Of a stretch of DNA of 64,000 nt, positions 14,386 to 30,841 are shown in pieces (position 1 is the first letter of the stretch; every line of letters begins with the position of its first letter). The notes under the pieces are model-generated. The model did not search any database. It saw nothing but the letters and a program-made list of their open reading frames with translations, and was not told where the DNA came from. The stretch is taken from positions 1 through 64,000 of the IMG/VR virus record IMGVR_UViG_3300032242_001916; one strand, 5' to 3'. The DNA comes from a virus. Both the position numbers and the translations under genes were made by a program.

Positions 14386-14437
14386 TAACTGTTACCTGAT
14401 AACAGCGTTCACATTACGTGAATTCGCTCTGTGTAAA

Positions 14438-17697: not shown

Positions 17698-17950
17698 TAT
17701 GCATTTATCTCCACTTCTTCACCAATTAGTTCTATGTTGTCATCTTCCCACTCGATGATAGAAGTTTTTGGGTGTTCATTCCACAGCTTCATTGCTTCTC
17801 CAGGTGTCTCAGCTGTTACTAAGTAGCTGATGATCTGTGTTATTTCGTATTGCATTATTCCTCCTCATTGCATTTGCTGCAAGGTTCATTTAGTTCTGGT
17901 GTCTCACTTTGATAGCAGACACCACATATATAACTAATCATTTGTCTCCT

Positions 17951-18073
17951 TATAAAAGATAAGTGGCAAAGCTCGTACAGAAATAAGACTTGTCACCAAA
18001 TCTACGGCCAGCGCATTACGTTTTGATAAAAGTTTTAAACTTATTTGTACGCAGCTTTGCCACCTACATTTAT
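17951..18073 (-). ncRNA. rod-like structured RNA candidate
   Basis: long imperfect inverted repeat AGTGGCAAAGCTCGTACAGAAATAAG / CTTATTTGTACGCAGCTTTGCCACC, intergenic. Confidence 0.55.
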
Positions 18074-18161
18074 TGCTAAAAGAAGAGTAAAGTCAGACGG
18101 AAATAAAGTTACTAGTGAGCACGCTCTCGTTTGCCCATATTCGCCTGTACCATACTCTTCG

Positions 18162-18234
18162 TACCCTCGGCTGGATTCGAACCAGCGACACGCAGGGTAG
18201 AAACCTGCTGCTCTATCCCCTGAGCTACGAGGGC
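18162..18234 (-). tRNA. tRNA-Arg(UCU)
   Basis: full cloverleaf GCCCTCG..TAGCTCAG..GCAGG-TTTCTAC-CCTGC..GGTTCGAATCC; no encoded CCA. Confidence 0.9.
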
Positions 18235-18235
18235 T

Positions 18236-18379
18236 GGATAACAACAGAGTTATCTGCAGTTACCCCTCCATTGTGACAAGTAATCACAAGTCATTTGCGC
18301 GGTAGATTATTAAGTTATGGGGGAGTCATACCTTAGGTCATATAGACTTAAAGTATACCTCAGTGGTAAGTAGTTATCC
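18236..18379 (-). ncRNA. stem-closed structured RNA candidate abutting the 5' end of tRNA-Arg
   Basis: GGATAAC/GTTATCC closing stem, internal hairpins, no ORF. Confidence 0.4.
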
Positions 18380-18382
18380 CCT

Positions 18383-18430
18383 AACAGGTAGGGCCCTAGG
18401 ACAACCGTGCAATCCTAGGGCCTTACTGTT
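18383..18430 (-). terminator. strong hairpin (terminator or processing stem)
   Basis: GGCCCTAGGA/TCCTAGGGCC extended stem. Confidence 0.55.
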
Positions 18431-18616
18431 CTAGTTTAGAAACCGTAGCTTTGGATTAAAAGACTGCTCGCCATATCGATCTAGGTCTACATCAAATATG
18501 AGAGCACCTGTCTTTATATCCAGTAACGCTACGTTCCAGTTACTAGTGTCGGTTAGGTCTATGTCCCTATCATCATCAATGTATAAGAGCATAGTCATCC
18601 TTACCTTTTTTATCAT
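18431..18616 (-). CDS. hypothetical protein
   Basis: GGAGG RBS. Confidence 0.65.
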   Translation of the reverse strand: MIKKVRMTMLLYIDDDRDIDLTDTSNWNVALLDIKTGALIFDVDLDRYGEQSFNPKLRFLN

Positions 18617-18736
18617 ATATCCCCTCCTCGTGGGGCTTTCTATTGTGAGTAGCGTATATCACACTGACTACAATAGAAACTTTGATCGCCCTCTGTACTG
18701 GTCGCTGGCTGCGACCCGCACCTAGGGCATAAATAT

Positions 18737-18925
18737 CTACTCACTGTTTTTAGCTTTCGATTTCTTCATGTGGCAATCACACGTACAGTTAGTAGGTGTG
18801 GTGTTGCCCTCCAATGACCAGAATGTTATGTGCACCCTGCATTGTTTGTGTTGGTCATCCAGGCACCAAGAGAACTTATGGTCCGAGGGAACCTTATAAG
18901 TCTCCGGCCTGATGGTCCTAGCCAT
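18737..18925 (-). CDS. small Cys/His protein
   Basis: WCLDDQHKQC...CTCDCH. Confidence 0.65.
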   Translation of the reverse strand: MARTIRPETYKVPSDHKFSWCLDDQHKQCRVHITFWSLEGNTTPTNCTCDCHMKKSKAKNSE

Positions 18926-19910
18926 TATTAATTGACCAACCTTCTGGGGGACAGCAACCACTGTTCTCACACATTAGTGAACGAACATGGGTACCATCCT
19001 CACTGACCATCAATATGTCAGCAACCTTTGCAAAAGTTCCATTGAGTCCATTATATATTCCCTCACGGATGAGTTGAATAGTTTCTTCGTCAATGGTATC
19101 CAATGTAGATACGTAGGCAATGTAGTCCTCTTCATTCATTTTTGAAGCCAAGTCATTGTACTCGTCAGCAGCCGCTTGAATATTTGATGAGAAATCAATT
19201 GTAGCCATATCAAGTACCTCATCATCATCAGAAAGTGCAACAGCTATAAGTAGATGCTTGTTGTTAACTAACTCATCCCCCATGCTAAATGCTAACTGTT
19301 TCATCAGATCTTTTGGACCAAGTACAGTAGATCCTACGATAGATATTTTTTCAGGTAACTCTGGAATGTCTAAGTAATCTTCGGTGAAACCTTTACGACT
19401 TGCCTGCAAAGATTCATTGAAGATTATAGCAACCATTTCTTCATCACCCTTTTCTATGAATGATTTAGTACTTCGTATCAATAAGTTGGCTAGCCCAGCA
19501 TTGTATGCTTTTACAGAGTCAATGCTTAAATACCCAAAGGCACGCTCACTGGCAGCCAACGATTCTGGAACATCACCATTACTTAGAAGAGCTGCCCCCA
19601 TTACTGTAAGCATAATTGCTTTTTCTTTATGGGGTAAGTTCTTGAGCCTATCCTCATTGAGTTCCCACCACCTAAAGAAAGAAGAACGTATTCTACTTTC
19701 TGCAAAGTTACACAGGATTCTATCTCGTAGTTCTAGGGAGTCTAACAATGAACATACATCTTCTAGGTCCAACGTATGCTTAGAACAAAACATCTCATCT
19801 ACAACTTGTAGATAGTATGTTTTGAGTGCTTCCGGATCAGTCTTGATTGTTGTAACTACCTGTTCCTTAGCCTCCGGAGTACTGAACAGTTTTTCTATTG
19901 ATTGCGACAT
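18918..19910 (-). CDS. DUF4192-like protein, apparently domain-permuted
   Basis: C-terminal RSLMC...CCPPEG signature; N-terminal LD.LELRD helical part. Confidence 0.65.
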   Translation of the reverse strand: MSQSIEKLFSTPEAKEQVVTTIKTDPEALKTYYLQVVDEMFCSKHTLDLEDVCSLLDSLELRDRILCNFAESRIRSSFFRWWELNEDRLKNLPHKEKAIMLTVMGAALLSNGDVPESLAASERAFGYLSIDSVKAYNAGLANLLIRSTKSFIEKGDEEMVAIIFNESLQASRKGFTEDYLDIPELPEKISIVGSTVLGPKDLMKQLAFSMGDELVNNKHLLIAVALSDDDEVLDMATIDFSSNIQAAADEYNDLASKMNEEDYIAYVSTLDTIDEETIQLIREGIYNGLNGTFAKVADILMVSEDGTHVRSLMCENSGCCPPEGWSINNG

Positions 19911-19919
19911 GTGTTCTCC

Positions 19920-20120
19920 TTAACAACTTGCCATTATAAATGCGTCAATATTATCTTGGATCCATTCGTCCGGTTCCGTTAGATAATATACTTCTAGTGG
20001 AGACATGTTGTATTTAGCAACCTCCTCCACCTTAACCACAAAGCTTATTGCATCTTCGTGTTTTTCAAAAGGGCCAATCATTGACTGACTGTCCTCATCA
20101 TGAACTATGAACATCTTCAT
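19920..20120 (-). CDS. hypothetical protein
   Basis: IGPF...EDA small early-type protein; GGAG RBS. Confidence 0.65.
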   Translation of the reverse strand: MKMFIVHDEDSQSMIGPFEKHEDAISFVVKVEEVAKYNMSPLEVYYLTEPDEWIQDNIDAFIMASC

Positions 20121-20820
20121 TCTCCTCTACGTATCCAATGTCTATATAATTTAGATCTTTGTCAAAACCAATAGGCTTGGCATCCCATAGCCTACCCCTA
20201 CGTTTGCTACCGTAATCTGCCTTGCCTAAACCTGCACACTTTGTACACATGTGCATACGCTTCTGGGTGTGTGGAGCTGATTTACCGTGTAAGCAACGTG
20301 TATGGTTTTTATGTGGGCTTACTCGGCTATCCCAAAATGGAACCTCACACTCGTTCATTAAACGATGACGCTCAATGTTTTCTTCACAGTCACCCTCTAA
20401 ACATAGACCTGGACCAGAGCAAAAACCTGACACTAAGCCGCAACCATCACAGGTCCTGCATCGCTTTATGTTAGGTGGACTAATTCCATCAGCTGGACTG
20501 CTGATGATTAGATTACCTTTTCTAATTAAAACTTGCACGCCGGGAACATATTTCATCCAAATCTTACGCATATATGGCCAATGGTTTCCTGTTGGAGTAC
20601 CAACAACCGTTGTGCCATCAGAACGATAGATTACAAAATACTTTGTAGAATTTTGCCATCTAGCGGTGATACCTATCTGGTCGCTATCTATTCTCTCAAG
20701 GTACAGGTAGTCATACAGTGTGCGAGATTTTGCATTGTTTTCTCTAGCCCCAGCTAACCATCTAACTGCTGAGTCATAGTCTTTCACGCCTGAGCGTGAT
20801 TTGTATTGATACTTTGGCAT
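20098..20820 (-). CDS. hypothetical protein with CxxCxGxG zinc-finger motifs
   Basis: CRTCDGCG, CTKCAGLG; GGAGG RBS. Confidence 0.75.
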   Translation of the reverse strand: MPKYQYKSRSGVKDYDSAVRWLAGARENNAKSRTLYDYLYLERIDSDQIGITARWQNSTKYFVIYRSDGTTVVGTPTGNHWPYMRKIWMKYVPGVQVLIRKGNLIISSPADGISPPNIKRCRTCDGCGLVSGFCSGPGLCLEGDCEENIERHRLMNECEVPFWDSRVSPHKNHTRCLHGKSAPHTQKRMHMCTKCAGLGKADYGSKRRGRLWDAKPIGFDKDLNYIDIGYVEENEDVHSS

Positions 20821-20832
20821 CTAGCCTCCTAT

Positions 20833-20879
20833 AAAAATGCGGGCTACACCAAGGAGGGAAGTCCCTGATGTAGCCCGCA
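20833..20879 (-). terminator. intrinsic terminator
   Basis: TGCGGGCTACA...TGTAGCCCGCA + T5 on the minus strand. Confidence 0.75.
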
Positions 20880-20887
20880 GTAATTAA

Positions 20888-22846
20888 CTAGTGACGGCCC
20901 GCCATACGAATGGCGTTAGTTACTATTGGTTTAGTGAATGGAATCAAATCCGCAGCAGTTTCTACTATGCCGTGGATTTGAGTCTTATGGTAAAGCTCTT
21001 CAAGAGTACCGTTAGTCTGTTTTGCATAGTACTCCATTTCAGATGGAGTAGCAATCATAACAAGCACGGTAATAACACCTTTACCATTTAAACGTTCAAT
21101 GATTTCATCGTTAACGTCTGTGTCAAACTGACCGTCGGTAATAATGAACATCATCTTAGTTTTGCGCTTACTGGATGCAAGTAATCGCTCTGCAGCAATC
21201 AATGCATTTTGGGGATCGGTACCACCACTGCCATAGATAAACGGTAGTTCAGTACGACTCGCTTTTTGATCGCGACCGTACACCAACTCAGTTTTACCAT
21301 CAAAGGCATACACGGTTACAGGTACATCAATCTGTTCCATTGCTCGTTTAATAACCCACGATGCTTCGGAAGCACGCATGTCGTTATGGTTAGAGCACAT
21401 AGAGCCTGAGCGATCGACAAGGAGTACTACTTCCATGTCTGTACCATCTCCACCCTCATCCCAACGATCGAATGCATCATCAATGTCACAACCTTTAATG
21501 ACACGCTGAACATTTATACGTCCGGAGGGTTGTTCACGCTGCCAAGTAGGTTCCAGATCTTGTTTGATCCGTTCCAGTTCCCTAGAGAACCTACGAGCAG
21601 TTAGTAGAACATCATTGGGCACTTGAACGTTGCTGTACCTGCCGTAAGATAAGCTATCTTGATGCTTACCATCACCGCCGATAATAACACGCTGCTTAGC
21701 CTTAACATCCTGCAAGACATCCTTGCGAGAATAGATTTCATTCTCAATTTCAGCAATGATGTCTGCGATGTTTTCAGGGATACCGCCCGCGCTTTTAACG
21801 TGAGCATTGGCACCCGTTGTATGCGTTACTTCAGAACTAGGATCACGACGACGAAGGGCTTCTTCGGCGCTGATTTCATGCACTGAATCATCGGGAGCAA
21901 CACGGCCAGGCGCATTGCCTGTGCCAGGAGTGTTGTTTGTGTTGGACGTATCTCCACCCTCAGTTGGGTTGTCTTTCGACTGTTCACCATCTGTTGGTTT
22001 AGATACGTTGTACACAGGCTCCTTTTGCCCAATACCACTGGCACGCTCAGAGTCTCTAATCTGAGCCTTGCCTGGTTCGGGACGGCCTTTACGACTGGGG
22101 TCACGATGCTCACAGTCATTGGGGCCACCCTTGGGCTTTGGGTTATTGCGGTTTTGCCCAAGAACATCTAGCACTTCAGTCTTGAAGCGTTCAATAAGCT
22201 CTTGTGCTTTTGCATAGTCTCTCGGGAATGCAAGTAACCGGTATTCATCTACAATCTCTGCAATGACCGGAATCAGTTCAGGTTTAATAAACTGATCTCG
22301 GAATGCAAGACGTAGTTCTAAGGGCAAATACTGACGGCCACGAATCGATAGGTAGTTAACCTGAAAAGACTCGGGGCTGTCAGCAAGCCAGCGGACAGTT
22401 GTCTTGGTTAGATACGGAACAATAGCAGGGTATCGACCAATCAATAAAGTCTCAATCCGTTGATCTTCCAGAATATTTGCTGCTGAAAGATAGCCGGATG
22501 TAAAGTCTTCTTGACTTCGAATCCACTGCATTAGTGTAGTACCTTTGCGTGGTGAGTACAAGTGATGGGCCAGCTCATGATAGTTGAGGCCAGTAATCTG
22601 CACCAACTCTTCAATGTCGAATTGCTCGATCATATCCGCGTTGATGTAGATGTCTTCGCCATCAGACCATGCAGGAGCATCGCCTTCGTTGACTACGTGA
22701 ACTGTAACTGGGTCACCAGTAAGAACACGGTCAGCCTGCTCATACACACGACAAAGGGCATTTAGGCGTACCGCACGCTGCTGAGCATCTTCTGATGCGT
22801 CAGGGCGATTGTAGTACCCCGTATCCCCTAGTTTGTCGTCATACAT
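20888..22846 (-). CDS. VWA-domain protein with N-terminal HExxH domain (CobT-like MoxR partner)
   Basis: HELAH..EDQRIE; MIDAS DRSGS, GGT, ITDG. Confidence 0.9.
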   Translation of the reverse strand: MYDDKLGDTGYYNRPDASEDAQQRAVRLNALCRVYEQADRVLTGDPVTVHVVNEGDAPAWSDGEDIYINADMIEQFDIEELVQITGLNYHELAHHLYSPRKGTTLMQWIRSQEDFTSGYLSAANILEDQRIETLLIGRYPAIVPYLTKTTVRWLADSPESFQVNYLSIRGRQYLPLELRLAFRDQFIKPELIPVIAEIVDEYRLLAFPRDYAKAQELIERFKTEVLDVLGQNRNNPKPKGGPNDCEHRDPSRKGRPEPGKAQIRDSERASGIGQKEPVYNVSKPTDGEQSKDNPTEGGDTSNTNNTPGTGNAPGRVAPDDSVHEISAEEALRRRDPSSEVTHTTGANAHVKSAGGIPENIADIIAEIENEIYSRKDVLQDVKAKQRVIIGGDGKHQDSLSYGRYSNVQVPNDVLLTARRFSRELERIKQDLEPTWQREQPSGRINVQRVIKGCDIDDAFDRWDEGGDGTDMEVVLLVDRSGSMCSNHNDMRASEASWVIKRAMEQIDVPVTVYAFDGKTELVYGRDQKASRTELPFIYGSGGTDPQNALIAAERLLASSKRKTKMMFIITDGQFDTDVNDEIIERLNGKGVITVLVMIATPSEMEYYAKQTNGTLEELYHKTQIHGIVETAADLIPFTKPIVTNAIRMAGRH

Positions 22847-22855
22847 CTTAACCTC

Positions 22856-24289
22856 CTAGATGTTGAAGATAGTTGGAGCAGTAACAGTATTAGTATTACT
22901 TGTCGGGCCGCCGACAAAATTATTTGTATCTGTTACTACGGGCGCTGTTGCATCTTCTACAACAGCTGTCTCAGCTTGCACAATATCAATGCCAAAATCA
23001 GGCTTGAGATTGTACTCGTGAGTTTGGAACACGAGACGTACAGATGCTTGCTCTTCGTAAGCAAAGTGAGCAATGAAGTTCTCAACTGCAAATTCATAGC
23101 CGAGTTCCTGTACTAAATCACCAAACTCAATCAACATGTTGGTTGCAATTGGTGTCTCGTACTGTCCCTTTGCTGCCTCAGTACGAAGCTGCTTAGCAAG
23201 TGCTAATAAGTTCTTAGACTTGACAAGTTTAGCCTCGACCTTATCATCGTAATCCCATTGGATTTGAATACCAAAGCGGTTACGCATTGCAGCATTTAGA
23301 CCAGCAGTGCCGATGTAATCTGGATTCATCGTGGCAAAGATAGTTAAGTCTGGATGCGCATGCACTACCTCACCCTTGTGGTCAAGCAGCGTGATCATAC
23401 GCTGACCAGTTAGCAATGTGAACAGAACGGTGTAAATCTTAGGTGAGATAAAGTTAAGCTCATCTAAGTTGAGTGCACCGCCATTACGTACAACATCAGT
23501 AACTGGGCCGTCAATCCATACAAAGTTACCTGCGCCTTCACTGATGATCTTACCGAACAAGTGACTAGGCTCAAGCGCAGCATTACCTGATACCTGAGCT
23601 AGACGCAAGCCGCGTGCAGCACACCATGCTTCGATTGATGTAGTCTTACCGGGACCGGTAGGACCGTAGATCAATACGTTACGATGATTAGCACGAGCAT
23701 TGTCAAAGATAGCAAAATCTTCCTTGCCACTGATTGTGCGGTGAACGTAACGTTCTGCAAGCTCAATCGGTGGGACAGATGCTAGTGAGAAGTGACCAGC
23801 AGGTTCTAGCTCAGGAGCCGTTGGGGCTACTGGAGCTGCAACTCTATTGATAACCGGTGGAGCAACAACAGCCATCTGACGACGACCATCAATTACTCGG
23901 GCATGCAATAAGTCAGAGCCACTAGATACGCTTGCAAATAGCTCGCAGATAACTTCAATAGGATCACTATTGCTTGGTAGTTCTGCGCTCTTATGTGCAT
24001 GTGTTGCCTTGGTGGTCAACACTGGTGAATAGCCCTTCTCACGAATTGCTTCTTCATCAGCATTGGTTACGTACACGCCAACTGGTTCTTTTGTAACCAA
24101 TTCGGTTGGGTCGATATCACCAATCACGCCATCAAGATCAGATTCAGTCCACTTATTGCGTGGACCTTTCTGACCGTCAGTTACTCGTGAGTAAAGGCGG
24201 ACATCATTACCAACTGGTACGATTAACACCTGGCGACGGTCATTACCCATCGATTCAGTGTAGGACTCGATAAAAACGGAAATACCCAT
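22856..24289 (-). CDS. MoxR/CbbQ/CobS-type AAA+ ATPase
   Basis: Walker A GPTGPGKT, Walker B LDE, ATMNPDY.GT..LN.A..NRF. Confidence 0.9.
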   Translation of the reverse strand: MGISVFIESYTESMGNDRRQVLIVPVGNDVRLYSRVTDGQKGPRNKWTESDLDGVIGDIDPTELVTKEPVGVYVTNADEEAIREKGYSPVLTTKATHAHKSAELPSNSDPIEVICELFASVSSGSDLLHARVIDGRRQMAVVAPPVINRVAAPVAPTAPELEPAGHFSLASVPPIELAERYVHRTISGKEDFAIFDNARANHRNVLIYGPTGPGKTTSIEAWCAARGLRLAQVSGNAALEPSHLFGKIISEGAGNFVWIDGPVTDVVRNGGALNLDELNFISPKIYTVLFTLLTGQRMITLLDHKGEVVHAHPDLTIFATMNPDYIGTAGLNAAMRNRFGIQIQWDYDDKVEAKLVKSKNLLALAKQLRTEAAKGQYETPIATNMLIEFGDLVQELGYEFAVENFIAHFAYEEQASVRLVFQTHEYNLKPDFGIDIVQAETAVVEDATAPVVTDTNNFVGGPTSNTNTVTAPTIFNI

Positions 24290-24320
24290 TTTTATTTCTC
24301 TCTCTTTCTGTTGTTGTTGT

Positions 24321-24572
24321 TTAAATCTCGAACCATTTTGGTTCGGGATCGTCTTTCCTTTTGAACATCTCGTGCATTTTGTGAGCAATGTTATACATTA
24401 AGAACGCTTGCTCGTATGCTATGACCTTTTCTTTAGGCCATTGAGTGATCATTTCAAACAGAAGATCATCTTCTTCTGCCTGGTCTATAACCGCTACCGA
24501 GAACTCTGCCAGATCGTCTATTTCTTCATCTGACAGAGGTTCGTTTAACGGTTCATCCATTGGATCGAACAT
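24321..24572 (-). CDS. acidic hypothetical protein
   Basis: GGAGG RBS. Confidence 0.7.
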   Translation of the reverse strand: MFDPMDEPLNEPLSDEEIDDLAEFSVAVIDQAEEDDLLFEMITQWPKEKVIAYEQAFLMYNIAHKMHEMFKRKDDPEPKWFEI

Positions 24573-24597
24573 GCTACCTCCAGCATTTTGTTAATTG

Positions 24598-24640
24598 AAA
24601 AACCCCGTACTAGCTCCAGCACGGTTCTAGTACGGGGTTG
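24598..24640 (-). terminator. intrinsic terminator
   Basis: AACCCCGTACTAG/CTAGTACGGGGTT + T-run. Confidence 0.8.
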
Positions 24641-24651
24641 TAAAGAAAGAG

Positions 24652-24739
24652 TTATTTCTGAATTCAGCGTGAACCCAATCCATTCGCTCAGACAGCCTGT
24701 CCAGCAGACACGCTCTCATACCCTAGAATTCAAAAAATA
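24652..24739 (-). ncRNA. stem-closed structured RNA candidate
   Basis: UAUUUUUUGAAUUC/GAAUUCAGAAAUA closing stem, inner AGCGUG/CACGCU. Confidence 0.4.
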
Positions 24740-24740
24740 T

Positions 24741-24893
24741 GCTTTGAGATGTAGTTATCTCCGAATTGAATTCCCGGTAGTATTGAAACATATGCTGCCA
24801 CCACCTACTGCCACTCTTGCCTCGCCATCACGGGGTTCTCATGCCATTGAGAACCTTGCGCTAGACTACGGTGAATGATACCAGAATAGAAGC
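24741..24893 (-). ncRNA. structured RNA candidate, possible third member of the ~160-nt family
   Basis: GUAGU/ACUAC stem, GGUUCUCA/UGAGAACC hairpin, GGCGAGGCAAGAGUGGCAG motif. Confidence 0.45.
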
Positions 24894-25010
24894 CTACTCT
24901 TTCTTTCCGACAGGCAAATACGTACCCTTGAACCCCTTTGGGGCGGATATGTAAATGGACCTCCTGCCAAATCTATGTGTGTGAGCGCGGTTTGTTTGTG
25001 TTGGCCGCAC

Positions 25011-25295
25011 TCACTTGCGAAGACGCAAGGGAGCTATGTCAAAGTCCTCGTCTTCTTCGCTTAGCACGCCTTGGTCAATCAAATCATTGATTAACTTTTT
25101 TGTGGCAACCATAGCGTCAATACGTACATTGAGAAGAAGAACATACGTAGCTGTATCTTCCCATGTATATACGTAAAATGGGTCTAGATCAATATACGAG
25201 AGTGGGGCCCTGTTGCCGTCAACAAATCTAAAGTTATCTTTGTCTTGTCCGGCATCATCCCATCTCATATCGTTTGGTATTAATGATTCTGACAT
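25011..25295 (-). CDS. hypothetical protein
   Basis: AAGGAG RBS. Confidence 0.7.
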   Translation of the reverse strand: MSESLIPNDMRWDDAGQDKDNFRFVDGNRAPLSYIDLDPFYVYTWEDTATYVLLLNVRIDAMVATKKLINDLIDQGVLSEEDEDFDIAPLRLRK

Positions 25296-25343
25296 AGCGT
25301 CTCCTTGCTTAAACTATATACACACCGGTTGTGTAAATAGTAG

Positions 25344-25417
25344 TGGGGCGTGTGGGACTTGAACCCACGACGGGCAGATTATGAGTCTGCTGCTCTAACC
25401 AACTGAGCTAACGCCCC
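25344..25417 (-). tRNA. tRNA with CAU anticodon (Ile2-lysidine type or elongator Met)
   Basis: cloverleaf GGGGCGT..GCAGA-CTCATAA-TCTGC..GGTTCAAGTCC; no encoded CCA. Confidence 0.9.
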
Positions 25418-25420
25418 TAA

Positions 25421-25548
25421 CCCTACACGAAATGCTTCATAGTTGAGTTCATCACCGACAGTATGCATTGTGTAGGGATTTTACGTGGAAGTTTGGTATC
25501 GTGGTCGCCCGCAAGGGTTGGACAGTATTACCGGTTGTCACGTAAAAT
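25421..25548 (-). ncRNA. two abutting stem-closed RNA elements
   Basis: CCCTACAC/GTGTAGGG (25421-25477) and ATTTTACGTG/CACGTAAAAT (25478-25548). Confidence 0.5.
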
Positions 25549-25553
25549 TTTGT

Positions 25554-25856
25554 TTAATCAACCCACGACAAAGTAAGAGGTTGATCTAAGTCGTATACAA
25601 CCTCGTTTTCGTGGTATTTGCGAAGCTCTATCTTGCTACCACGATCAATGATCGAGTAGAGAGAAGGTTCAGCATCTGGATCAATTAGTCTCAGCGCAGC
25701 ACGTAATCCATGTGATGTACCGCGGTGATAATCAGACAAGCCTAGGCTTGCATCTTCAAACTCAGCCAAGTCAGCCAACTCAATGAGTCCAACTAACCGG
25801 TCTGAAATCTTTTTGATCTTGAGCTTCTTGAGCTTCTTATTGGATTTTTTACCCAA
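25554..25856 (-). CDS. hypothetical protein
   Basis: GGAGG RBS, TTG start. Confidence 0.65.
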   Translation of the reverse strand: MGKKSNKKLKKLKIKKISDRLVGLIELADLAEFEDASLGLSDYHRGTSHGLRAALRLIDPDAEPSLYSIIDRGSKIELRKYHENEVVYDLDQPLTLSWVD

Positions 25857-25857
25857 T

Positions 25858-25938
25858 TTACTTACCTCCCTTTTTCTTAGGTTCGACTGGTCGTCTTTTA
25901 TTGGCGACCACTAACGATAGGACAATCTTTTTGTCCAT
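25858..25938 (-). CDS. 26-aa basic microprotein (MDKKIVLSLVVANKRRPVEPKKKGGK)
   Basis: AAGGGG RBS, fills the gap, not in the ORF track. Confidence 0.45.
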   Translation of the reverse strand: MDKKIVLSLVVANKRRPVEPKKKGGK

Positions 25939-26057
25939 AAGCACCCCTTTACTATGCTAGTGAGCAGTTTATACACATGCTCAGGTGTTACCTATACTTC
26001 GACATCCTTTGGTGATAGGTAACCAGTCAGTCTTTTATAGTCATCCTTAGGACTATG

Positions 26058-26216
26058 CTTATTAAGTGCGGAATCGATTGGTACTTTCGCGCCCCGTCCG
26101 ACGTTGGGTTGGGTTTTTACGGCCAACCTGCAACTCTAACTCGCCTATTCATCATCATGGTATACCTAGTAAACTTTCACAACTAGTAGTGACACCGGTG
26201 ATCGCTCTCCTATAAG
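26058..26216 (-). ncRNA. ~160-nt structured RNA, copy B
   Basis: CUUAUAGGAGAGCGAU...CGAUUCCGCACUUAAUAAG; homologous to copy A. Confidence 0.7.
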
Positions 26217-26255
26217 CAAAACTAATGAGCCAGTTTATAGTCATGGCTCAGGACT

Positions 26256-26423
26256 CTTATTAGGAACGGAATCGTTGTAGGCTTTCGACGTAGCCGGGCA
26301 CGTTGTGGAGGGTAAAACCATTGCACATATACCACGGTCTAGCTACTTGCTCGCGTTTCCAGCATGCTCGTTGTTAGTTTTACCCGTAAGAACAGAGGCA
26401 CTACGTAATCGCTCCCCTATAAG
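26256..26423 (-). ncRNA. ~168-nt structured RNA, copy A
   Basis: CUUAUAGGGGAGCGAU...CGAUUCCGUUCCUAAUAAG. Confidence 0.7.
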
Positions 26424-26471
26424 TCTGTGCAGTTTAGAGACATGCAGGTCATCAGCTTTTGATTACTTGAG

Positions 26472-26568
26472 CGCCTAATCAAGTTGCCTCCGTTATTTAT
26501 ACTCGCTGAGGCTCATGCCCTAGCATTTGTACGAGTCTTCTACCGTTCGACATTGCGGCTACTAGGCG
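26472..26568 (-). ncRNA. pseudoknotted RNA candidate
   Basis: CGCCUA/UAGGCG closing stem; ACUCG/CGAGU followed by AUAAAUA; GCCUC/GAGGC. Confidence 0.45.
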
Positions 26569-26574
26569 AAGTTT

Positions 26575-26802
26575 TTAATGTATTTTGTTATAGTTTGTAT
26601 ATTTAATTGGGGTTGGATTAGTTTCATCAATCATAATCAAACTATTACCATTACGAAGTAAGTCCATAGTTGGACCATCAAGCCACGTAAGGTCTTCAAT
26701 TGGCACGTAATGTTCCTTATCCCACTTAGCAGCGTACCTTTTGCTGGTAGTGTAACGGAATACACGGTAATTGATTTTTATCTTAAAAAGGAAATCTTTC
26801 AT
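26575..26802 (-). CDS. hypothetical protein
   Basis: GGAGG RBS. Confidence 0.6.
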   Translation of the reverse strand: MKDFLFKIKINYRVFRYTTSKRYAAKWDKEHYVPIEDLTWLDGPTMDLLRNGNSLIMIDETNPTPIKYTNYNKIH

Positions 26803-27274
26803 TAGTCCTCCAACTGTTTTAGTAGTTTTTCTTTTCTGTCACAAATTACATCGTGCAAAGGGTAAAATACCCACACGAATGGTCGTCGCCACCAAATGGT
26901 ATACCACTTGTATTTGTTATACAGTCTGCATAGCAAGGGCGTCTTCCGTATCATCACTTACCTCCTAGTAACATTTGCACTTCTTTTTAGTGCAACCCTC
27001 ATAAATGTATGCGAAGCACTGTTCTTGCCTCCATTTATGGGAGAGTTTAAATAAAAACTCTTCAATGTTAGGCAAAGTAGTGTTGTTAAACTCCACAACT
27101 TTGACATAGAACCAAAAAACAATTTTGTAGAGCCACATAATTTAGTCCCCCAACTGTTCGTTGATCCATTGCTTATTTTCACGACGCTCACGACGGTGAG
27201 TGCGCTTCTTTATTTTCTTTATTTCACCAGATCTCCAGATGAACATGTTACGCCATTTGGTGTAAGCATCCTGC

Positions 27275-27457
27275 TCATCCCCTGTTTTGATTAGGCGTTT
27301 CATAGCTTTCACCCGTTTCTTTTTCATATTCGGCAATCATCTGATCTATAAGATCAGAAATGTCTGCATCTGCAGGAATCTGAACAATCCTGCCCTCAGC
27401 ACGTGCCTTTTCTATTTCTTTATCTGCCGGTGATCCTGGGGTTACTATACAACCCAT
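27275..27457 (-). CDS. hypothetical protein
   Basis: coupled small ORF. Confidence 0.55.
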   Translation of the reverse strand: MGCIVTPGSPADKEIEKARAEGRIVQIPADADISDLIDQMIAEYEKETGESYETPNQNRG

Positions 27458-27642
27458 CAGTTTTCCTCTCCTGGTTGTCTAAACTGAGATAAGTCCATGC
27501 CCATTTCAAGGGCTAACTTATCACCAATTGGGTTTTCACTCGGTGGCACTTCTATAATGCGTCCGCCATACTTCCATGCAATAGTCATAAGAAAACAGCA
27601 AAGCACAAATAAAAACACCTCAATTACATCAGTCTTCGTCAT
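27457..27642 (-). CDS. small membrane protein
   Basis: one hydrophobic segment. Confidence 0.6.
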   Translation of the reverse strand: MTKTDVIEVFLFVLCCFLMTIAWKYGGRIIEVPPSENPIGDKLALEMGMDLSQFRQPGEEN

Positions 27643-27934
27643 CTAACTCTCCGTTCTTCTTGCGATTATGTGGTCGCGGTGGTACTGCAACCACGGGTTG
27701 AGCAAACCTAGCACGACGTTCTTCAGTCGTGCGAAGTTCTTTACCATTACGCTCATTAATACAAGCAAAACATACGCAATCTTGCGCATCCTGTATTTTA
27801 AGCACCATCATCTTACTGTCAGATACGATAGGGTCTAGAAGTTTTCTATTCCCTACCATATGCTTGACGTAAGTATGGCCTTTCATCCTGTACCATATTT
27901 CGTATTTATGGTTACTAACCATGATCTTACTCAT
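27629..27934 (-). CDS. hypothetical protein
   Basis: AAGGAG RBS. Confidence 0.65.
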   Translation of the reverse strand: MSKIMVSNHKYEIWYRMKGHTYVKHMVGNRKLLDPIVSDSKMMVLKIQDAQDCVCFACINERNGKELRTTEERRARFAQPVVAVPPRPHNRKKNGELDDED

Positions 27935-27943
27935 ATGCTCTCC

Positions 27944-28150
27944 TTAACTTCTTCCTGATGACTTACCGCCACGTAATGCGGGGTCGGACTTATGTACAAG
28001 GGTAAAACCTTGCTTTGGGACTAGCATGATACGGTAATCAGCCGCCCAATCTCTGTCGTGCTGAGCAATACAACCCTCGGACATACAATAGTTCTTGCCG
28101 AGTTCTACACGCTCAGGAGCGACTGGTTGGTTGCAATAGAGACAATTCAT
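27944..28150 (-). CDS. small Zn-finger protein (DksA/TraR C4-like N-terminus)
   Basis: CLYCNQPVAPER.ELG..YC...C. Confidence 0.6.
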   Translation of the reverse strand: MNCLYCNQPVAPERVELGKNYCMSEGCIAQHDRDWAADYRIMLVPKQGFTLVHKSDPALRGGKSSGRS

Positions 28151-28388
28151 GTTCTCTTATCCTCATTCCTGCTTCAACTAATAGGTCAGCACTGTCAAAC
28201 AATAGCGCTTGGCACACGGAGCTGATTATCTCAGAAGATGGTTCTTTGACACCCCGCTCTATTTCTGATAAATAGCCAAGAGCAATGCCAGCATTCTGAG
28301 CGACTTCTCGCATAGACAACTTGCTTTGTTCCCGCTGTTCTCTCAGAATTTGACCAACAGCATCCCTAATTAATAGGTTATTCTTCAT
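28113..28388 (-). CDS. ClgR-like XRE HTH transcriptional regulator
   Basis: LIRDAVGQILR..R......REVA..AGIALGYLSEIERG.KEPSSE....VC.AL matches actinobacterial ClgR. Confidence 0.8.
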   Translation of the reverse strand: MKNNLLIRDAVGQILREQREQSKLSMREVAQNAGIALGYLSEIERGVKEPSSEIISSVCQALLFDSADLLVEAGMRIREHELSLLQPTSRS

Positions 28389-28470
28389 GTTTCTCTCTTT
28401 TCTAGGTTTCAACGGGAAACCCGCAAAACCCACATCTACGCACATAGATATGGGCAATGCGCACTACCTG

Positions 28471-28764
28471 TTAAAGTAATTCGAACTTGTCAACAGTAGG
28501 CTTTGGGCCATTTTCAGTTGACCATAGTGCGTGATGACTAGCAAGTATTTCTAATGCTCTGTCGTATGAATGGCACTCAAAGGTGTATGAAGTGCCGTTC
28601 ACTGTCAAAACTAGTGAATTGAACCGCTCATTGCGCTTGTACGCAATAAGGTCGGTTAGTTCCCTAATCTGACGGTGAAGTCTTCCACGATCACGGTCTG
28701 ACGCACTAAGCATGAATCCAAGTGCTGCACACATGCTCATTAGTAGTAATACGAATAGCCACAT
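28471..28764 (-). CDS. membrane-anchored hypothetical protein
   Basis: GAGGAG RBS, N-terminal TM segment. Confidence 0.65.
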   Translation of the reverse strand: MWLFVLLLMSMCAALGFMLSASDRDRGRLHRQIRELTDLIAYKRNERFNSLVLTVNGTSYTFECHSYDRALEILASHHALWSTENGPKPTVDKFELL

Positions 28765-28843
28765 GGCTATCTCCTCTCGTTTAAGTGAGTTTGAGTAAAC
28801 TCCTCGGGGATACATTCACGCTAGTAGATGTATCCCCTGGGTG

Positions 28844-29125
28844 CTACTCAATAACACCTATCTTTTCTTTCATTTGCTCCTTATGTAACGCTAGGACTTG
28901 TCGAAGTTCAACGAGTTTGTCCCAGCAAGGACGACAACGCCAACCGTTCTCGATTCCTGCTTTGGACGCTAGTGAGTCTTCATATAGCTCTACTTGCGTA
29001 GCACGACATCGAGTGCAGTTACCCTGTCTTGAATCACCAAATACCACAGGGTTATCCTTTCTATGGTGTCTAATGACTTCCCACCGAAATTTTCGGGGGA
29101 AACTTACGGGTGCACAAAGGCACAC
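28844..29125 (-). CDS. Zn-binding hypothetical protein (start uncertain)
   Basis: CTRC..CRPC. Confidence 0.5.
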   Translation of the reverse strand: MCLCAPVSFPRKFRWEVIRHHRKDNPVVFGDSRQGNCTRCRATQVELYEDSLASKAGIENGWRCRPCWDKLVELRQVLALHKEQMKEKIGVIE

Positions 29126-29152
29126 CCCTAGTGTGGGTAGAAAAAAAGAAAT

Positions 29153-29194
29153 AAAAAAAAAGGGCTACCACCCTAATGGATGATAGCCCTTTTT
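29153..29194 (-). terminator. intrinsic terminator
   Basis: AAAAGGGCTA/TAGCCCTTTT with long T-run. Confidence 0.8.
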
Positions 29195-29196
29195 GG

Positions 29197-29379
29197 TTAG
29201 GCGTGGCAGTCGCACTCGCAAGGACCACACACGTGCTCACCTGCGGTGTGGCACTTATCACCACAGGCTAAAGCAACGTGCCCAGTCTTGCAAGGGCAAT
29301 TGTCCACTGCTCTCATTAGTTGGATCTTGAGACCCTCACCAATGACAGCACCTAATGTGTATGTCAATGTCTTTGACAT
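29197..29379 (-). CDS. Cys/His-rich microprotein
   Basis: GAGGAG RBS; CPC..H..C...CH...C..CECDCH. Confidence 0.65.
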   Translation of the reverse strand: MSKTLTYTLGAVIGEGLKIQLMRAVDNCPCKTGHVALACGDKCHTAGEHVCGPCECDCHA

Positions 29380-29406
29380 GGTTTCTCCTCTCTGCAGAGA
29401 AAACTA

Positions 29407-29456
29407 AAAAAAGGCGGGGGAACTAAAAGGCTGTACAACCTAATAGTTCCCCACAC
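29407..29456 (-). terminator. intrinsic terminator
   Basis: GGGGAACUA...UAGUUCCCC + U6. Confidence 0.7.
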
Positions 29457-29590
29457 CCTGATAGAGAGATACCGTAGACCTATGCCAACGATAGCCGAGT
29501 GTATTCTCCCCTATCCACACCAGTGCACTGGCTGGGAGTTTCCCTGTGGACAGATAAAGGGGATTGGAGTATCACTATCATTCTCCCACA

Positions 29591-29644
29591 TCGTGCCCCC
29601 CTGTGGAATTGAACCACAGTAGTGAAGCCTTACACTTTAGGGGC
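29591..29644 (-). ncRNA. anticodon-less tRNA-like element
   Basis: GCCCCUAAAGUGUAAGGCUUCACUACUGUGGUUCAAUUCCACAGGGGGGCACGA: acceptor, D-like and T arms only. Confidence 0.65.
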
Positions 29645-29778
29645 TTGTTGGGAACTACCTGATAACAGATAGCCCCCACACTGTATAGCCTGGTTGCACT
29701 CTCAATGACCATAGTCATAGAGAAGCAGTAGCCCAGCCTTTCTTCTGTGACGAGCGAGGGGTGTCCCACACTAATCAC

Positions 29779-29819
29779 AAAAAAAAGGCTGGAACACCGA
29801 AATGTCCCAGCCTTTTTCT
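29779..29819 (-). terminator. intrinsic terminator
   Basis: AAAAAGGCTGG...CCAGCCTTTTT. Confidence 0.85.
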
Positions 29820-29831
29820 CTCCCTTGCGGG

Positions 29832-30419
29832 TTACGACTTGATAGCCGCTAGGATTGCATCTGCAATCTTTTGCGCACGAGCCTTGTCAGACTCGGTGTG
29901 AACGCCACGAGTGACGAACTCAAGTTCTGCTTCCATACGAAGCAACGCAGATGTTGAAGTCTGCTTGAGTGATGCTCGAATGTCGGCATTTTCCTGAGTC
30001 TTAGCCTTTTTATCGGCTAAGTCACGAACCAATGCGTCATAACCCGCACTGACCTTTTGCTTGAAGGCTAGTGGGCCGGCAGCACCTACTAGGAATGCAG
30101 ACGCGAAGTCTACACATTCCTGAGCGGTAGCGTCATCTTCCAACTGATTGAACGCCCAAGCAGACCACATAAGAAGGGTGGCGCTACGAGCGACTGACTT
30201 CTTACCCATAACGGCAAGGCGGTCAGACAGTCTTCCAGTAACCTGAGTAATCCACTGTTCACCCTGACCAGCAATAACGCTAGCAATACGAGGTACAGCA
30301 ACGACAATACCAAGACCGAGGACCTCAATAATGAGTTCCGCAGTTACTAGGTCTGCGTTAGTAGCGGTAGGGTTCACAACAGGTGCTGCTCCCTCTGTCT
30401 TTAAAGATGTGTTAGCCAC
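29832..30419 (-). CDS. first gene of the leftward block, helical hypothetical protein
   Basis: AAGGAG RBS before GTG 30419. Confidence 0.75.
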   Translation of the reverse strand: MANTSLKTEGAAPVVNPTATNADLVTAELIIEVLGLGIVVAVPRIASVIAGQGEQWITQVTGRLSDRLAVMGKKSVARSATLLMWSAWAFNQLEDDATAQECVDFASAFLVGAAGPLAFKQKVSAGYDALVRDLADKKAKTQENADIRASLKQTSTSALLRMEAELEFVTRGVHTESDKARAQKIADAILAAIKS

Positions 30420-30464
30420 GGCTAAACTCCTTTGTGACAACTACGCGCACAGTGTGTGAGCGTA

Positions 30465-30499
30465 TGGTGATACGGACTGGACTTGAACCAGCCCGTACC
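30465..30499 (-). ncRNA. tRNA minihelix with encoded ACCA end
   Basis: GGUACGG GCUGG UUCAAGU CCAGU CCGUAUC A CCA. Confidence 0.75.
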
Positions 30500-30841
30500 G
30501 AGAGAGAGGTTATTGTGTGTTCTGGTGTAATGTAGAGACGGAACAGTTGTTCGGTCATACCCCCTGCCCAGTTATTTTTGGACAGCAAAAAGGGCAGACT
30601 ATTCCTAGCCTACCCAGAACAAGTTTTTCAACTTCGTAGTTGATAATAATTATTTATTACCCCCCCACCGTTAAATAACAATTTTTTATCATATTGGCCA
30701 GGTGAGACAAGTTACCAGGACCTTTTGGGCTGTACAGTGGCCCAATCTATGATCATAGAATGCACGGAGCACATTTTGCGGGTAGCTCAAATTTTTCAGG
30801 GTTTAGGCGTTTTTAGGCAGTGGCTACTTTAAGATAGGTGT

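What the first reader, a model, noticed from the sequence alone, without database searches (positions are those of the whole stretch)
17951..30499. Candidate new system: an early phage transcript acting as a polycistronic source of tRNA mimics and structured RNAs
Seen: the leftward block has many non-coding gaps, and most hold a self-contained RNA fold. These include a minihelix (30465-30499), an anticodon-less tRNA (29591-29644), tandem ~160-nt homologs with pseudoknot punctuation (25960-26568), and stem-closed units abutting both tRNAs (25421-25548, 18236-18379). More lie at 24652-24893 and 17951-18073. At least five intrinsic terminators interrupt the block. Established: RNase P and 3' nucleases excise tRNA-shaped elements, and Actinobacteria encode the 5'-3' exonuclease RNase J. 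Inference: host RNases cut this transcript into about a dozen stable small RNAs. They could act as decoys for tRNA-targeting defences, as protein sponges or as put-like antiterminators. The phage's SpoVS, KTSC, HicA-like and nucleotidyltransferase proteins are possible partners.
Basis: partly seen in the sequence, partly recalled or inferred. Interest (0 to 1): 0.88.

Follow-up and report, generated by a model that had tools for sequence, protein, structure and literature searches.

The report
RNA punctuation of phage early genes
The gaps between the early genes of this 94-kb freshwater phage hold conserved RNA folds (two half-tRNA look-alikes, hairpins clamped on both sides of its tRNA genes, and a short array of ~160-base stem-closed RNAs) that most likely mark where host enzymes cut and protect the early messages; the idea that they act as decoys is untested.

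Summary
The 35-nt tRNA minihelix (30465-30499) and the tRNA-like element (29591-29644) are far above chance. Ten such elements (eight related phages plus the two here) keep the fold, with 116 of 120 stem positions paired. The two ~160-nt tandem units have five homologues in other contigs, a 15-bp closing helix and a co-varying inner stem. tRNA-Met sits between two co-varying hairpins. At least six strong terminators are real.

Some claims do not hold. The terminators argue against one polycistronic transcript. One "fold" (29655-29733) has conserved blocks but no shared structure and looks like a promoter/operator. Two gaps hold small ORFs. The "D-arm" of the tRNA-like element is lost in near relatives. 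In half the clade the minihelix slot holds a plain hairpin. The pseudoknot is only suggestive.

Best reading: these are cis-acting cut and end-protection signals, like plant mitochondrial t-elements, plus a few genuine small RNA modules. One close relative carries a hammerhead ribozyme in an early-gene leader.

No RNA data exist, so cleavage, stable products and any decoy role remain unshown. This scan has already noted tRNA-minihelix punctuation in several unrelated phages.

The parts
30661..30674 (-). G-rich 14-nt box at the head of the leftward block, one copy per genome in the window and in 12 relatives
30587..30615 (-). terminator-like hairpin with U tract, lying between the head box and the minihelix in the leader
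30465..30499 (-). tRNA minihelix (7+5 bp, T loop, A-CCA) about 45 nt before the first leftward gene. The same slot in relatives holds a minihelix or a plain 12-17-bp hairpin.
29832..30419 (-). first leftward gene (195 aa from the GTG that has a ribosome-binding site). It evolves fast and matches no family.
29779..29817 (-). intrinsic terminator after the first gene
   Evidence: (sequence)
29655..29733 (-). 'family X': three conserved sequence blocks at a fixed 76-77-nt span in 13 genomes, with no consensus structure and stop codons in all frames in relatives. Probably a promoter/operator.
29591..29644 (-). tRNA-like element: acceptor stem, a variable 19-nt insert and a T arm, with tail A-CGA
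29406..29453 (-). intrinsic terminator closing the non-coding unit
   Evidence: (sequence)
29157..29194 (-). intrinsic terminator (17-bp stem, long U tract)
26424..26572 (-). 'block 1': conserved non-coding stretch, 91-93% identical in L007 and L046 and 78% in L002. It ends in the first copy of hairpin M1 (26427-26450).
26256..26423 (-). stem-closed RNA unit A (168 nt); its homologue is L043:2478-2644
26226..26255 (-). hairpin M1, copy b: conserved 13-nt loop and a stem that lengthens by compensatory insertion
26058..26216 (-). stem-closed RNA unit B (159 nt); homologues in L001, L047, L007 and L046
25960..26056 (-). degenerate M1 copy, a 9-bp hairpin and M1 copy c, directly before a ribosome-binding site
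25858..25938 (-). possible 26-aa ORF, not conserved in relatives
   Evidence: sequence
25418..25553 (-). tRNA-Met 5' leader with two stem-closed hairpins. The proximal 9-bp stem ends 3-4 nt before the tRNA and co-varies in 7 genomes.
25343..25417 (-). tRNA-Met (CAT)
25312..25341 (-). hairpin starting about 3 nt after tRNA-Met and followed by the ribosome-binding site of the next gene. Present in all relatives with different sequence.
24598..24639 (-). intrinsic terminator (13-bp stem) 25 nt before the 83-aa / AAA / VWA genes
24640..25010 (-). ORF-poor gap with a modestly stable fold (z -2.7) and no homologue in relatives. It holds one copy of the genome's recurrent 12-mer.
20838..20879 (-). 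intrinsic terminator after the VWA gene
18235..18430 (-). gap 5' of tRNA-Arg: a strong hairpin at 18383-18430 and a hairpin abutting the tRNA. L001 and L007 have a hairpin in the same place with other sequence.
18161..18234 (-). tRNA-Arg (TCT)
18082..18160 (-). stem-closed 79-nt unit directly 3' of tRNA-Arg. L007 has the same architecture with a different closing stem.
17951..18073 (-). long hairpin (z -7.0) followed by a U-rich run and a ribosome-binding site; possibly a terminator
17855..17941 (-). 28-aa zinc-ribbon-like ORF, so this part of the 'gap' is coding

Best explanation
The leftward early block of this WhiB-encoding, probably actinobacterial, freshwater myophage is not one message. 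It is a chain of short transcription units whose RNAs carry conserved cis-acting structures.

(1) Two tRNA top-half elements, made of an acceptor stem and a T arm, act like plant-mitochondrial t-elements. Host RNase P and RNase Z (or equivalent 3' processing) recognise the 12-bp coaxial helix with its T loop. They cut there and set the 5' end of the downstream RNA.

(2) Each real tRNA is excised from its transcript. The hairpin that ends 3-4 nt before the tRNA becomes the protected 3' end of the upstream fragment. The hairpin that starts about 3 nt after the tRNA becomes the protected 5' end of the next mRNA.

(3) A local array at 25960-26572 consists of one conserved leader block and two ~160-nt modules. 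Each module is closed by the same 15-bp helix and followed by a conserved-loop hairpin. The array gives a few discrete structured RNAs whose own function is unknown.

(4) The block at 29655-29733 is a promoter/operator, not an RNA fold.

Shown here: the structures exist, they are conserved, they are specific to the leftward strand, and they co-vary. Inferred: every cleavage event, the enzymes involved and the protective effect.
For: tRNA-likeness above chance: (5 T-arm-plus-acceptor hits against 0.08 expected). In about 600 kb of related loci there are 12 hits on the gene strand and 1 on the other strand.

Orthology and covariation: the element always lies in the leader of the first leftward gene. 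Across 10 sequences, 116 of 120 stem cells pair, with 39 pair types over 12 pairs. Register-shifted controls give 54 and 53 of 120.

tRNA-Met 5' stem: 9/9 pairs in 5 of 7 genomes, with three double compensatory changes in L046 and G-U changes in L001, L002 and L043. The enclosed inserts are unrelated in sequence. The 3' hairpins are 9-10 bp with different sequences.

Non-coding stretches are 91-95% identical to L007 and L046, while the flanking proteins are 48-61% identical.

Units: a 15-bp closing helix with one compensatory pair and strand-specific G-U pairs. The inner stem P2 is more stable with its own partner than with partners from other units, -6.2 against -3.3 kcal/mol. The M1 hairpin stem lengthens by paired insertions, and M1 occurs nowhere else in the 94-kb genome.

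A close relative has a Hammerhead_II ribozyme above Rfam's threshold in an early-gene leader on the same strand. This shows that RNA cutting between early genes occurs in this clade.

Precedent: t-elements, found by the same T-loop motif, direct RNase Z and RNase P cuts at mRNA ends, and plain acceptor-like stem-loops are proposed to do the same (PMC1920247). RNase P also cuts phage P1/P7 C4 RNA and operon mRNAs (reference list of PMC11143913).
Against: There is no transcript evidence of any kind.

In L010, L016, L019, L021-L023 and L025 the slot holds a hairpin without a T loop. In L004 and L005 an outer helix continues beyond the acceptor stem. The conserved feature may therefore be only a stable hairpin.

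The minihelix sequences were partly found with a descriptor that demands pairing, which inflates the paired fraction.

The units and block 1 are not more stable than shuffled sequence. They rest on only seven copies from a narrow sub-clade.

Coding windows of the block are also fairly structured.

A cis processing role does not explain why the ~160-nt modules exist or why their copy number varies.
Confidence: 0.45

Rival explanations
1. The elements are excised as stable trans-acting small RNAs: tRNA decoys for tRNA-targeting defences, protein sponges or antiterminator RNAs. Their main function lies in the released RNA, not in the cut.
For: The ~160-nt units are not tied to a gene. They have an invariant closing helix with variable interiors, and they vary in copy number between near relatives. 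These are traits of accessory RNA genes. The 29.4-29.8 kb unit is non-coding, bracketed by terminators and contains a tRNA-like element. The window minihelix encodes A-CCA.
Against: Neither tRNA-like element has an anticodon arm, which is the usual target of anticodon nucleases. The T loop is dispensable in half the clade. The D-arm-like insert is not conserved. No CCA-adding enzyme or NTP_transf_2 family protein was found in the genome. There is no match to Y RNA, 6S, GOLLD, ROOL or any other Rfam family.
Confidence: 0.22
2. The tRNA-like pieces are decaying remnants of phage tRNA genes. The other conserved blocks are DNA-level signals such as promoters, operators or an origin with repeats. 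No RNA structure is under selection.
For: Family X has conserved blocks at fixed spacing and no consensus structure. Its 3' block is an imperfect palindrome that recurs in another intergenic site on the antisense strand. It lies right before a ribosome-binding site in L002 and L017. M1 contains a hexamer fitting the actinobacterial -10 pattern and lies 15-25 nt before a ribosome-binding site in several genomes. The units do not fold better than shuffles.
Against: Compensatory and G-U changes in four element classes work only as RNA on the leftward strand. The interleaved complementarity and paired stem insertions in M1 are not expected of a promoter. The minihelix keeps a full 5' acceptor strand joined directly to the T arm in distant relatives, which decay of a tRNA gene would not maintain. 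M1 is absent from the rest of the genome.
Confidence: 0.18
3. The gaps are mostly explained by unannotated small protein genes.
For: A conserved 28-aa CxxC...CxxC ORF fills 17855-17941, and a possible 26-aa ORF fills 25858-25938.
Against: Relatives have stop codons in all frames across family X. Near relatives differ by 1-nt and 4-nt indels in the 29.4-29.8 kb unit. No ORF is shared across the unit copies, whose interiors cannot be aligned. ORFs in the remaining gaps lack ribosome-binding sites.
Confidence: 0.05

Closest known systems
t-elements of plant mitochondria, and the mitochondrial tRNA-punctuation model (Forner et al. 2007, PMC1920247)
   Same: Both are partial tRNA mimics built around the T-loop motif with an acceptor-like stem. 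Both lie inside longer transcripts next to mRNA ends. Plain acceptor-like stem-loops can stand in for them. Real tRNAs next to genes serve the same purpose.
   Different: Here the setting is a phage of a bacterium, with no mapped RNA ends. The window copy is a bare 35-nt minihelix with an encoded CCA. The elements lie in the leader of the first early gene rather than being scattered.
tRNA acceptor/T-arm minihelix, the laboratory model substrate of RNase P, CCA-adding enzyme and some aminoacyl-tRNA synthetases (my own knowledge; the tRNA identity review PMC9976931 turned up)
   Same: 7+5 bp coaxial helix, 7-nt T loop with a closing G-C pair, a discriminator base and CCA.
   Different: This is a natural, genome-encoded element that is conserved with covariation. 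No enzymology has been done on it.
tRNA-minihelix punctuation noted earlier by this scan in unrelated phages
   Same: Top-half tRNA mimics in leaders or between early genes. In one of those cases hammerhead ribozymes occupy the same slots in relatives.
   Different: Those are unchecked notes on other phage lineages (Bacteroides, Flavobacteriia, Streptococcus, cyanophage, soil). Here the host is probably an actinobacterium, and the hammerhead in relative L001 is not shown to occupy the same slot.
Small stable RNAs co-transcribed with the phage T4 tRNA cluster, and RNase III sites between phage T7 early genes (my own knowledge, not checked in a paper here)
   Same: Phage early or tRNA transcripts are cut by host RNases into tRNAs, extra stable RNAs and separate mRNAs. 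Stem structures flank the cuts.
   Different: There is no sequence or Rfam relationship. The ~160-nt units with an invariant closing helix and the M1 hairpin have no described counterpart.

Membership tests
tRNA (Rfam RF00005) | Full cloverleaf with D arm and anticodon arm, scoring above the model threshold | tested here: not met
   ARAGORN and Rfam report only the three true tRNAs. At E up to 5 the tRNA model gives no match on either element. The only trace is a weak hit (E 1.3) to an antisense-tRNA-like model on the opposite strand at 29593-29644.
t-element / tRNA minihelix | T-loop motif closed by a G-C pair on a 5-bp stem, stacked on a 6-7-bp acceptor-like stem | tested here: met
   Both window elements and 8 relatives meet it, with the G-C closing pair invariant in 10 of 10.
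t-element / tRNA minihelix | RNA ends that coincide with the element, and cleavage by RNase P / RNase Z | not testable with these tools
t-element / tRNA minihelix | tRNA-like features conserved across orthologues | tested here: inconclusive
   Kept in about half of the clade. The slot holds 12-17-bp hairpins with other loops in L010, L016, L019, L021-L023 and L025.
Hammerhead ribozyme type II (RF02276), in relative L001 only | Score above the gathering threshold with intact catalytic core boxes | tested here: met
   39.4 bits against a threshold of 37, and both core boxes align. There is none in the window.
Intrinsic terminator | G+C-rich stem followed directly by a U tract on the transcribed strand | tested here: met
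   Six sites on the minus strand.
H-type pseudoknot (for M1) | Two interleaved stems, both supported by covariation | tested here: inconclusive
   Stem 1 is kept through paired insertions. Stem 2 has 4 or more Watson-Crick pairs in 6 of 10 distinct copies, against about 14% expected by my rough estimate. It fails or is weak in 3-4 copies, and the loop lengths are atypical.
Y RNA / YrlA with Ro (Rsr) | Rfam match, and a neighbouring protein with a TROVE domain | tested here: not met
   No Rfam match. The 652-aa VWA protein shows no TROVE domain.
Known large or phage-associated ncRNAs (6S, GOLLD, ROOL, raiA, riboswitches) | Rfam covariance-model match | tested here: not met
   window; relatives.
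put-type antiterminator RNA | Paired stem-loops just downstream of a promoter that make RNA polymerase read through terminators | not tested
   No model was available, and promoters are not mapped.

The most novel reading that the evidence does not exclude
The array at 25960-26572 encodes a new class of phage small RNAs. Each module is about 160 nt, with an invariant 15-bp closing helix, a co-varying inner stem and a freely diverging interior, and is followed by a conserved-loop hairpin or pseudoknot. The modules would be released by host double-strand-specific or tRNA-type RNases and act in trans, for example as scaffolds or sponges for a host or phage protein. The tRNA top-half elements would then belong to the same RNA toolkit rather than being mere cut marks.
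Probability: 0.2. Interest if true: 0.75.

Novelty: new variant of a known kind. Interest (0 to 1): 0.55.

Why it matters
If host tRNA-processing enzymes cut at these elements, a clade of abundant freshwater actinobacterial phages organises its early gene expression by tRNA-style punctuation. That logic is textbook for mitochondria but barely described for phages. The pattern seems to recur in unrelated phages seen by this scan, yet no RNA database lists it. The elements are short and have clear sequence rules, so they are easy to test in vitro. The ~160-nt module family and the conserved hairpins clamped around phage tRNA genes give concrete candidates for new RNA families, and for studying how phages stabilise message fragments against RNase J and 3' exonucleases.

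Tried and rejected
Expression data: no RNA holder was listed for 24300-30650. The four DNA runs I laid are contigs and show only variants and unit gain or loss.

Contigs for homologues of the 100-aa neighbour protein therefore came only from one metagenome scan, which gave 5 new loci.

Pattern scans of IMG/VR for the unit boxes and for a block-1 19-mer returned only the known relatives plus chance hits in coding sequence.

megablast against GenBank phages found only a tRNA match.

T7-type RNA polymerase: no match in the genome. The family rang in none of the control genomes either, so that search is uninformative. The resemblance of the unit's 5' box to a T7-like start site was therefore dropped; the box also occurs only twice in the window.

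Sigma-70-type promoter scan: fewer hits than in shuffles, so it was not used.

The idea that the VWA protein is a Ro60-like partner was rejected, because it has no TROVE domain.

The first leftward gene has no Pfam, PHROG or Atlas lead.

RNAalifold on family X gave no structure. My hand-built pairings between its blocks did not survive the variants in L007 and L010.

I considered whether M1 mimics a CRISPR repeat. I did not test it: the prior is low and the spacing is not array-like.

MAFFT misaligns the variable stems. Formal pair counts with the count of structure pairs were therefore replaced by coordinate-based scripts.

Full report
SETTING. The window is the first 64 kb of a complete 94.1-kb IMG/VR virus record with direct terminal repeats. 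Genes on the minus strand run from about 30.6 kb down to about 16.8 kb. Among them are an HTH regulator, an AAA_5 ATPase, a VWA protein, a weak HicA-like match (24.2 bits, below Pfam's 27-bit cut-off) and a pyrimidine-dimer glycosylase. The genome carries two WhiB genes, so an actinobacterial host is plausible. DNA holders of the stretch are lake and freshwater metagenomes. tRNA-Arg and tRNA-Met lie inside the block. Rfam at gathering thresholds finds only the tRNAs.

RELATIVES. The ATPase recovered 33 loci from IMG/VR at about 60% protein identity. L001, L002 and L007 share the two tRNAs and the local gene order. A metagenome scan with the 100-aa neighbour protein added L043-L047. Non-coding stretches of the window are 91-95% identical to L007 and L046, whereas the flanking proteins are 48-61% identical. 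That is the first sign of constraint on the nucleotides themselves.

tRNA TOP-HALF ELEMENTS. I scanned with a simple descriptor: T-loop consensus, 5/5 T stem and a 7-nt acceptor strand pairing upstream.
- It finds the three tRNAs plus 30499-30465 and 29644-29591.
- The first has a 7/7 acceptor stem directly abutting the T arm and is followed by A-CCA. The second has a 6/7 acceptor stem and a 19-nt insert.
- 200 Markov shuffles give 1.1 T arms, 0.08 T arms with a full acceptor stem and no abutting minihelix.
- In about 600 kb of related loci the descriptor hits 12 times on the gene strand and once on the other strand.
- The hits on the gene strand, apart from one weak A+T-rich match shared by the near-identical loci L010-L012, lie in one syntenic slot. 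The order is: a single-copy G-rich box that heads the block, sometimes a terminator-like hairpin, the element, often a second hairpin, then the ribosome-binding site of a fast-evolving 160-200-aa gene.
- Two further orthologues (L026, L015) were found by synteny alone and have a variant loop.
- Over ten sequences, 116 of 120 stem cells pair, with 39 pair types across 12 pairs. Register-shifted controls give 54 and 53 of 120. The closing G-C pair of the T stem is invariant, and the discriminator is A in 9 of 10.

There are four caveats.
- The descriptor selects for pairing, which inflates the paired fraction.
- In L010, L016, L019, L021-L023 and L025 the same slot holds a 12-17-bp hairpin with another loop.
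- In L004 and L005 an outer helix continues past the acceptor stem.
- The D-arm-like insert of 29644-29591 loses its 3' strand in near-identical relatives (indels at 29622-29626).

The robust feature is therefore a stable coaxial hairpin in this leader. About half of the clade dresses it as a tRNA top half.

THE 29.4-29.8 kb UNIT. Terminators at 29779-29817 and 29406-29453 bracket a stretch without a credible ORF. Its first part, 29733-29655, consists of three sequence blocks kept at a 76-77-nt span in 13 genomes.
- RNAalifold finds no shared structure.
- Relatives have stop codons in every frame.
- The 3' block is an imperfect palindrome. It recurs on the minus strand at 14395-14405, between two plus-strand genes.
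- In L002 and L017 the element ends 6-25 nt before a ribosome-binding site. In the window it ends 10 nt before the tRNA-like element.

I read it as a promoter/operator. The stretch after the tRNA-like element (29445-29590) is not notably structured (z -0.4).

THE ARRAY AT 25960-26572. Read on the minus strand, the order is: block 1 (about 150 nt, ending in hairpin M1), unit A, M1, unit B, a degenerate M1, a hairpin, M1, and then a ribosome-binding site.
- Units run from a conserved 5' box to a conserved 3' box and are 153-175 nt long. The seven copies are two in the window and one each in L001, L007, L043, L046 and L047.
- In every copy the two boxes form the same 15-bp interrupted helix (5+7+3 bp). 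It has one compensatory G-C to A-U change, and it has G-U pairs that would be A-C mismatches on the other strand.
- Just inside lies a 4-6-bp stem with a different sequence in each lineage. Duplexes between cognate strands average -6.2 kcal/mol, against -3.3 for non-cognate combinations, and the cognate partner ranks first in 4 of 7.
- Interiors fall into two or three types that cannot be aligned with each other.
- M1 keeps a 13-nt loop while its stem changes by paired insertions, from 4 to 6 to 8 bp. A second, interleaved pairing appears in 6 of 10 distinct copies. I rate that as suggestive only, because registers are flexible and copies are not independent.
- M1 occurs nowhere else in the 94-kb genome, so it is not a general promoter.
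- Near-identical relatives in lake metagenomes lack or gain whole units, for example a joint that skips 201 nt from 26048 to 26250.
- Block 1 shows a weak consensus fold with a few compensatory pairs.
- None of these pieces folds better than shuffled sequence. The case for them rests on comparison, and on only seven copies.

tRNA FLANKS. A 9-bp stem ends 3-4 nt before tRNA-Met in all seven genomes. It has 9/9 pairs in five of them and 8/9 in two. L046 has three double compensatory substitutions, and L001, L002 and L043 have G-U changes. The enclosed 39-54 nt are unrelated in sequence between lineages, and in L002 they contain a terminator-like hairpin. A 9-10-bp hairpin starts about 3 nt after the discriminator in each genome, again with different sequence, and is followed by the next gene's ribosome-binding site. 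tRNA-Arg likewise has a hairpin directly 5' in the window, L001 and L007. It also has a stem-closed 79-nt unit 3' in the window, with the same architecture but another closing stem in L007.

OTHER GAPS. 17855-17941 is a 28-aa CxxC...CxxC ORF with a strong ribosome-binding site, and it is conserved in L007. 17951-18073 is a long hairpin with a U-rich tail (z -7.0). 24640-25010 has z -2.7 and no homologue. As a control, 23 coding windows of the block average z -1.9, and one reaches -7.2. Thermodynamic stability alone is therefore weak evidence here.

TERMINATORS. Six strong hairpin-plus-U-tract sites lie on the minus strand.

A RIBOZYME IN A RELATIVE. An earlier scan note reported hammerheads replacing minihelices in another phage, so I scanned the relatives with Rfam. 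L001:304-365 is a type II hammerhead at 39.4 bits against a threshold of 37, with both core boxes intact. It lies on the gene strand, 17 nt before an ATG and about 1 kb upstream of the HTH homologue. No other locus has one. It shows that cutting of early RNA between genes occurs in this clade. It does not show that the cut falls in the same slot.

INTERPRETATION. The simplest account that covers the conserved elements is cis-acting punctuation.
- tRNA top halves and real tRNAs are cut out by the host tRNA-processing enzymes.
- The hairpins clamped on both sides are left as protective ends on the neighbouring RNA fragments.
- Plant mitochondrial t-elements are the documented parallel, including the substitution of plain stem-loops (PMC1920247). 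RNase P is also known to cut phage and operon RNAs.
- The ~160-nt modules do not fit a pure cis role.
- Nothing supports decoy, sponge or antiterminator functions specifically. The elements lack an anticodon arm, and the genome shows no CCA-adding enzyme or NTP_transf_2 family protein.

NOVELTY. I found no paper describing tRNA-minihelix punctuation in phages in the held library, and Rfam has no such family. This scan has, however, noted the same kind of element in several unrelated phages. I therefore rate the finding as a new variant of a known kind of system. It comes with a candidate new RNA module family of narrow distribution, and it has no expression evidence.

Noticed in passing
L001:304-365 (+): Type II hammerhead ribozyme above Rfam's gathering score. 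It lies in the leader of an early gene of a close relative, on the gene strand.
   Followed up: partly
window 14395-14405 (-), 13792-13802 (-), 13735-13745 (-), 29658-29668 (-): An 11-nt imperfect palindrome recurs 2-3 times per genome in nearly all relatives, always on the same strand. One copy is the 3' block of family X, one lies between two plus-strand genes, and two lie antisense inside a 500-aa gene. It may be an operator.
   Followed up: partly
window 30661-30674 (-): A G-rich 14-nt box occurs exactly once per genome, at the head of the leftward block, in the window and 12 related loci. It may be a promoter or another head-of-operon signal.
   Followed up: partly
window 16528, 16581, 35162, 42117, 51008 (+); 18843, 21934, 24993 (-): The same 12-mer occurs 8 times exactly (0.5 expected), always co-oriented with the local genes, both inside genes and in gaps.
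   Followed up: partly
window 27690-27890 (-): Three strong hairpins (z -5.6) lie inside the orphan 101-aa ORF 27629-27934. Either the coding RNA is unusually structured or part of this ORF is not coding.
   Followed up: no
L013:4270-4330, L033:3490-3550 and equivalents in L015, L026, L030: Three to four direct repeats of a 9-nt motif lie just upstream of the minihelix in one sub-clade. This looks like a set of operator sites.
   Followed up: no
window 26048-26530: Near-identical phages in lake metagenomes differ by loss or gain of whole repeat units (joints skipping 201, 121 and 100 nt; one 401-nt insertion at 25950-25959).
   Followed up: partly
G000 92138-92362 (+) and 82406-82591 (+), outside the window: Two WhiB-family genes, pointing to an actinobacterial host.
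   Followed up: no
window 41751 (-): A T-arm-like motif with a 7/7 acceptor-like match 73 nt upstream. The local sequence has no other tRNA-like feature, so it is probably chance.
   Followed up: no
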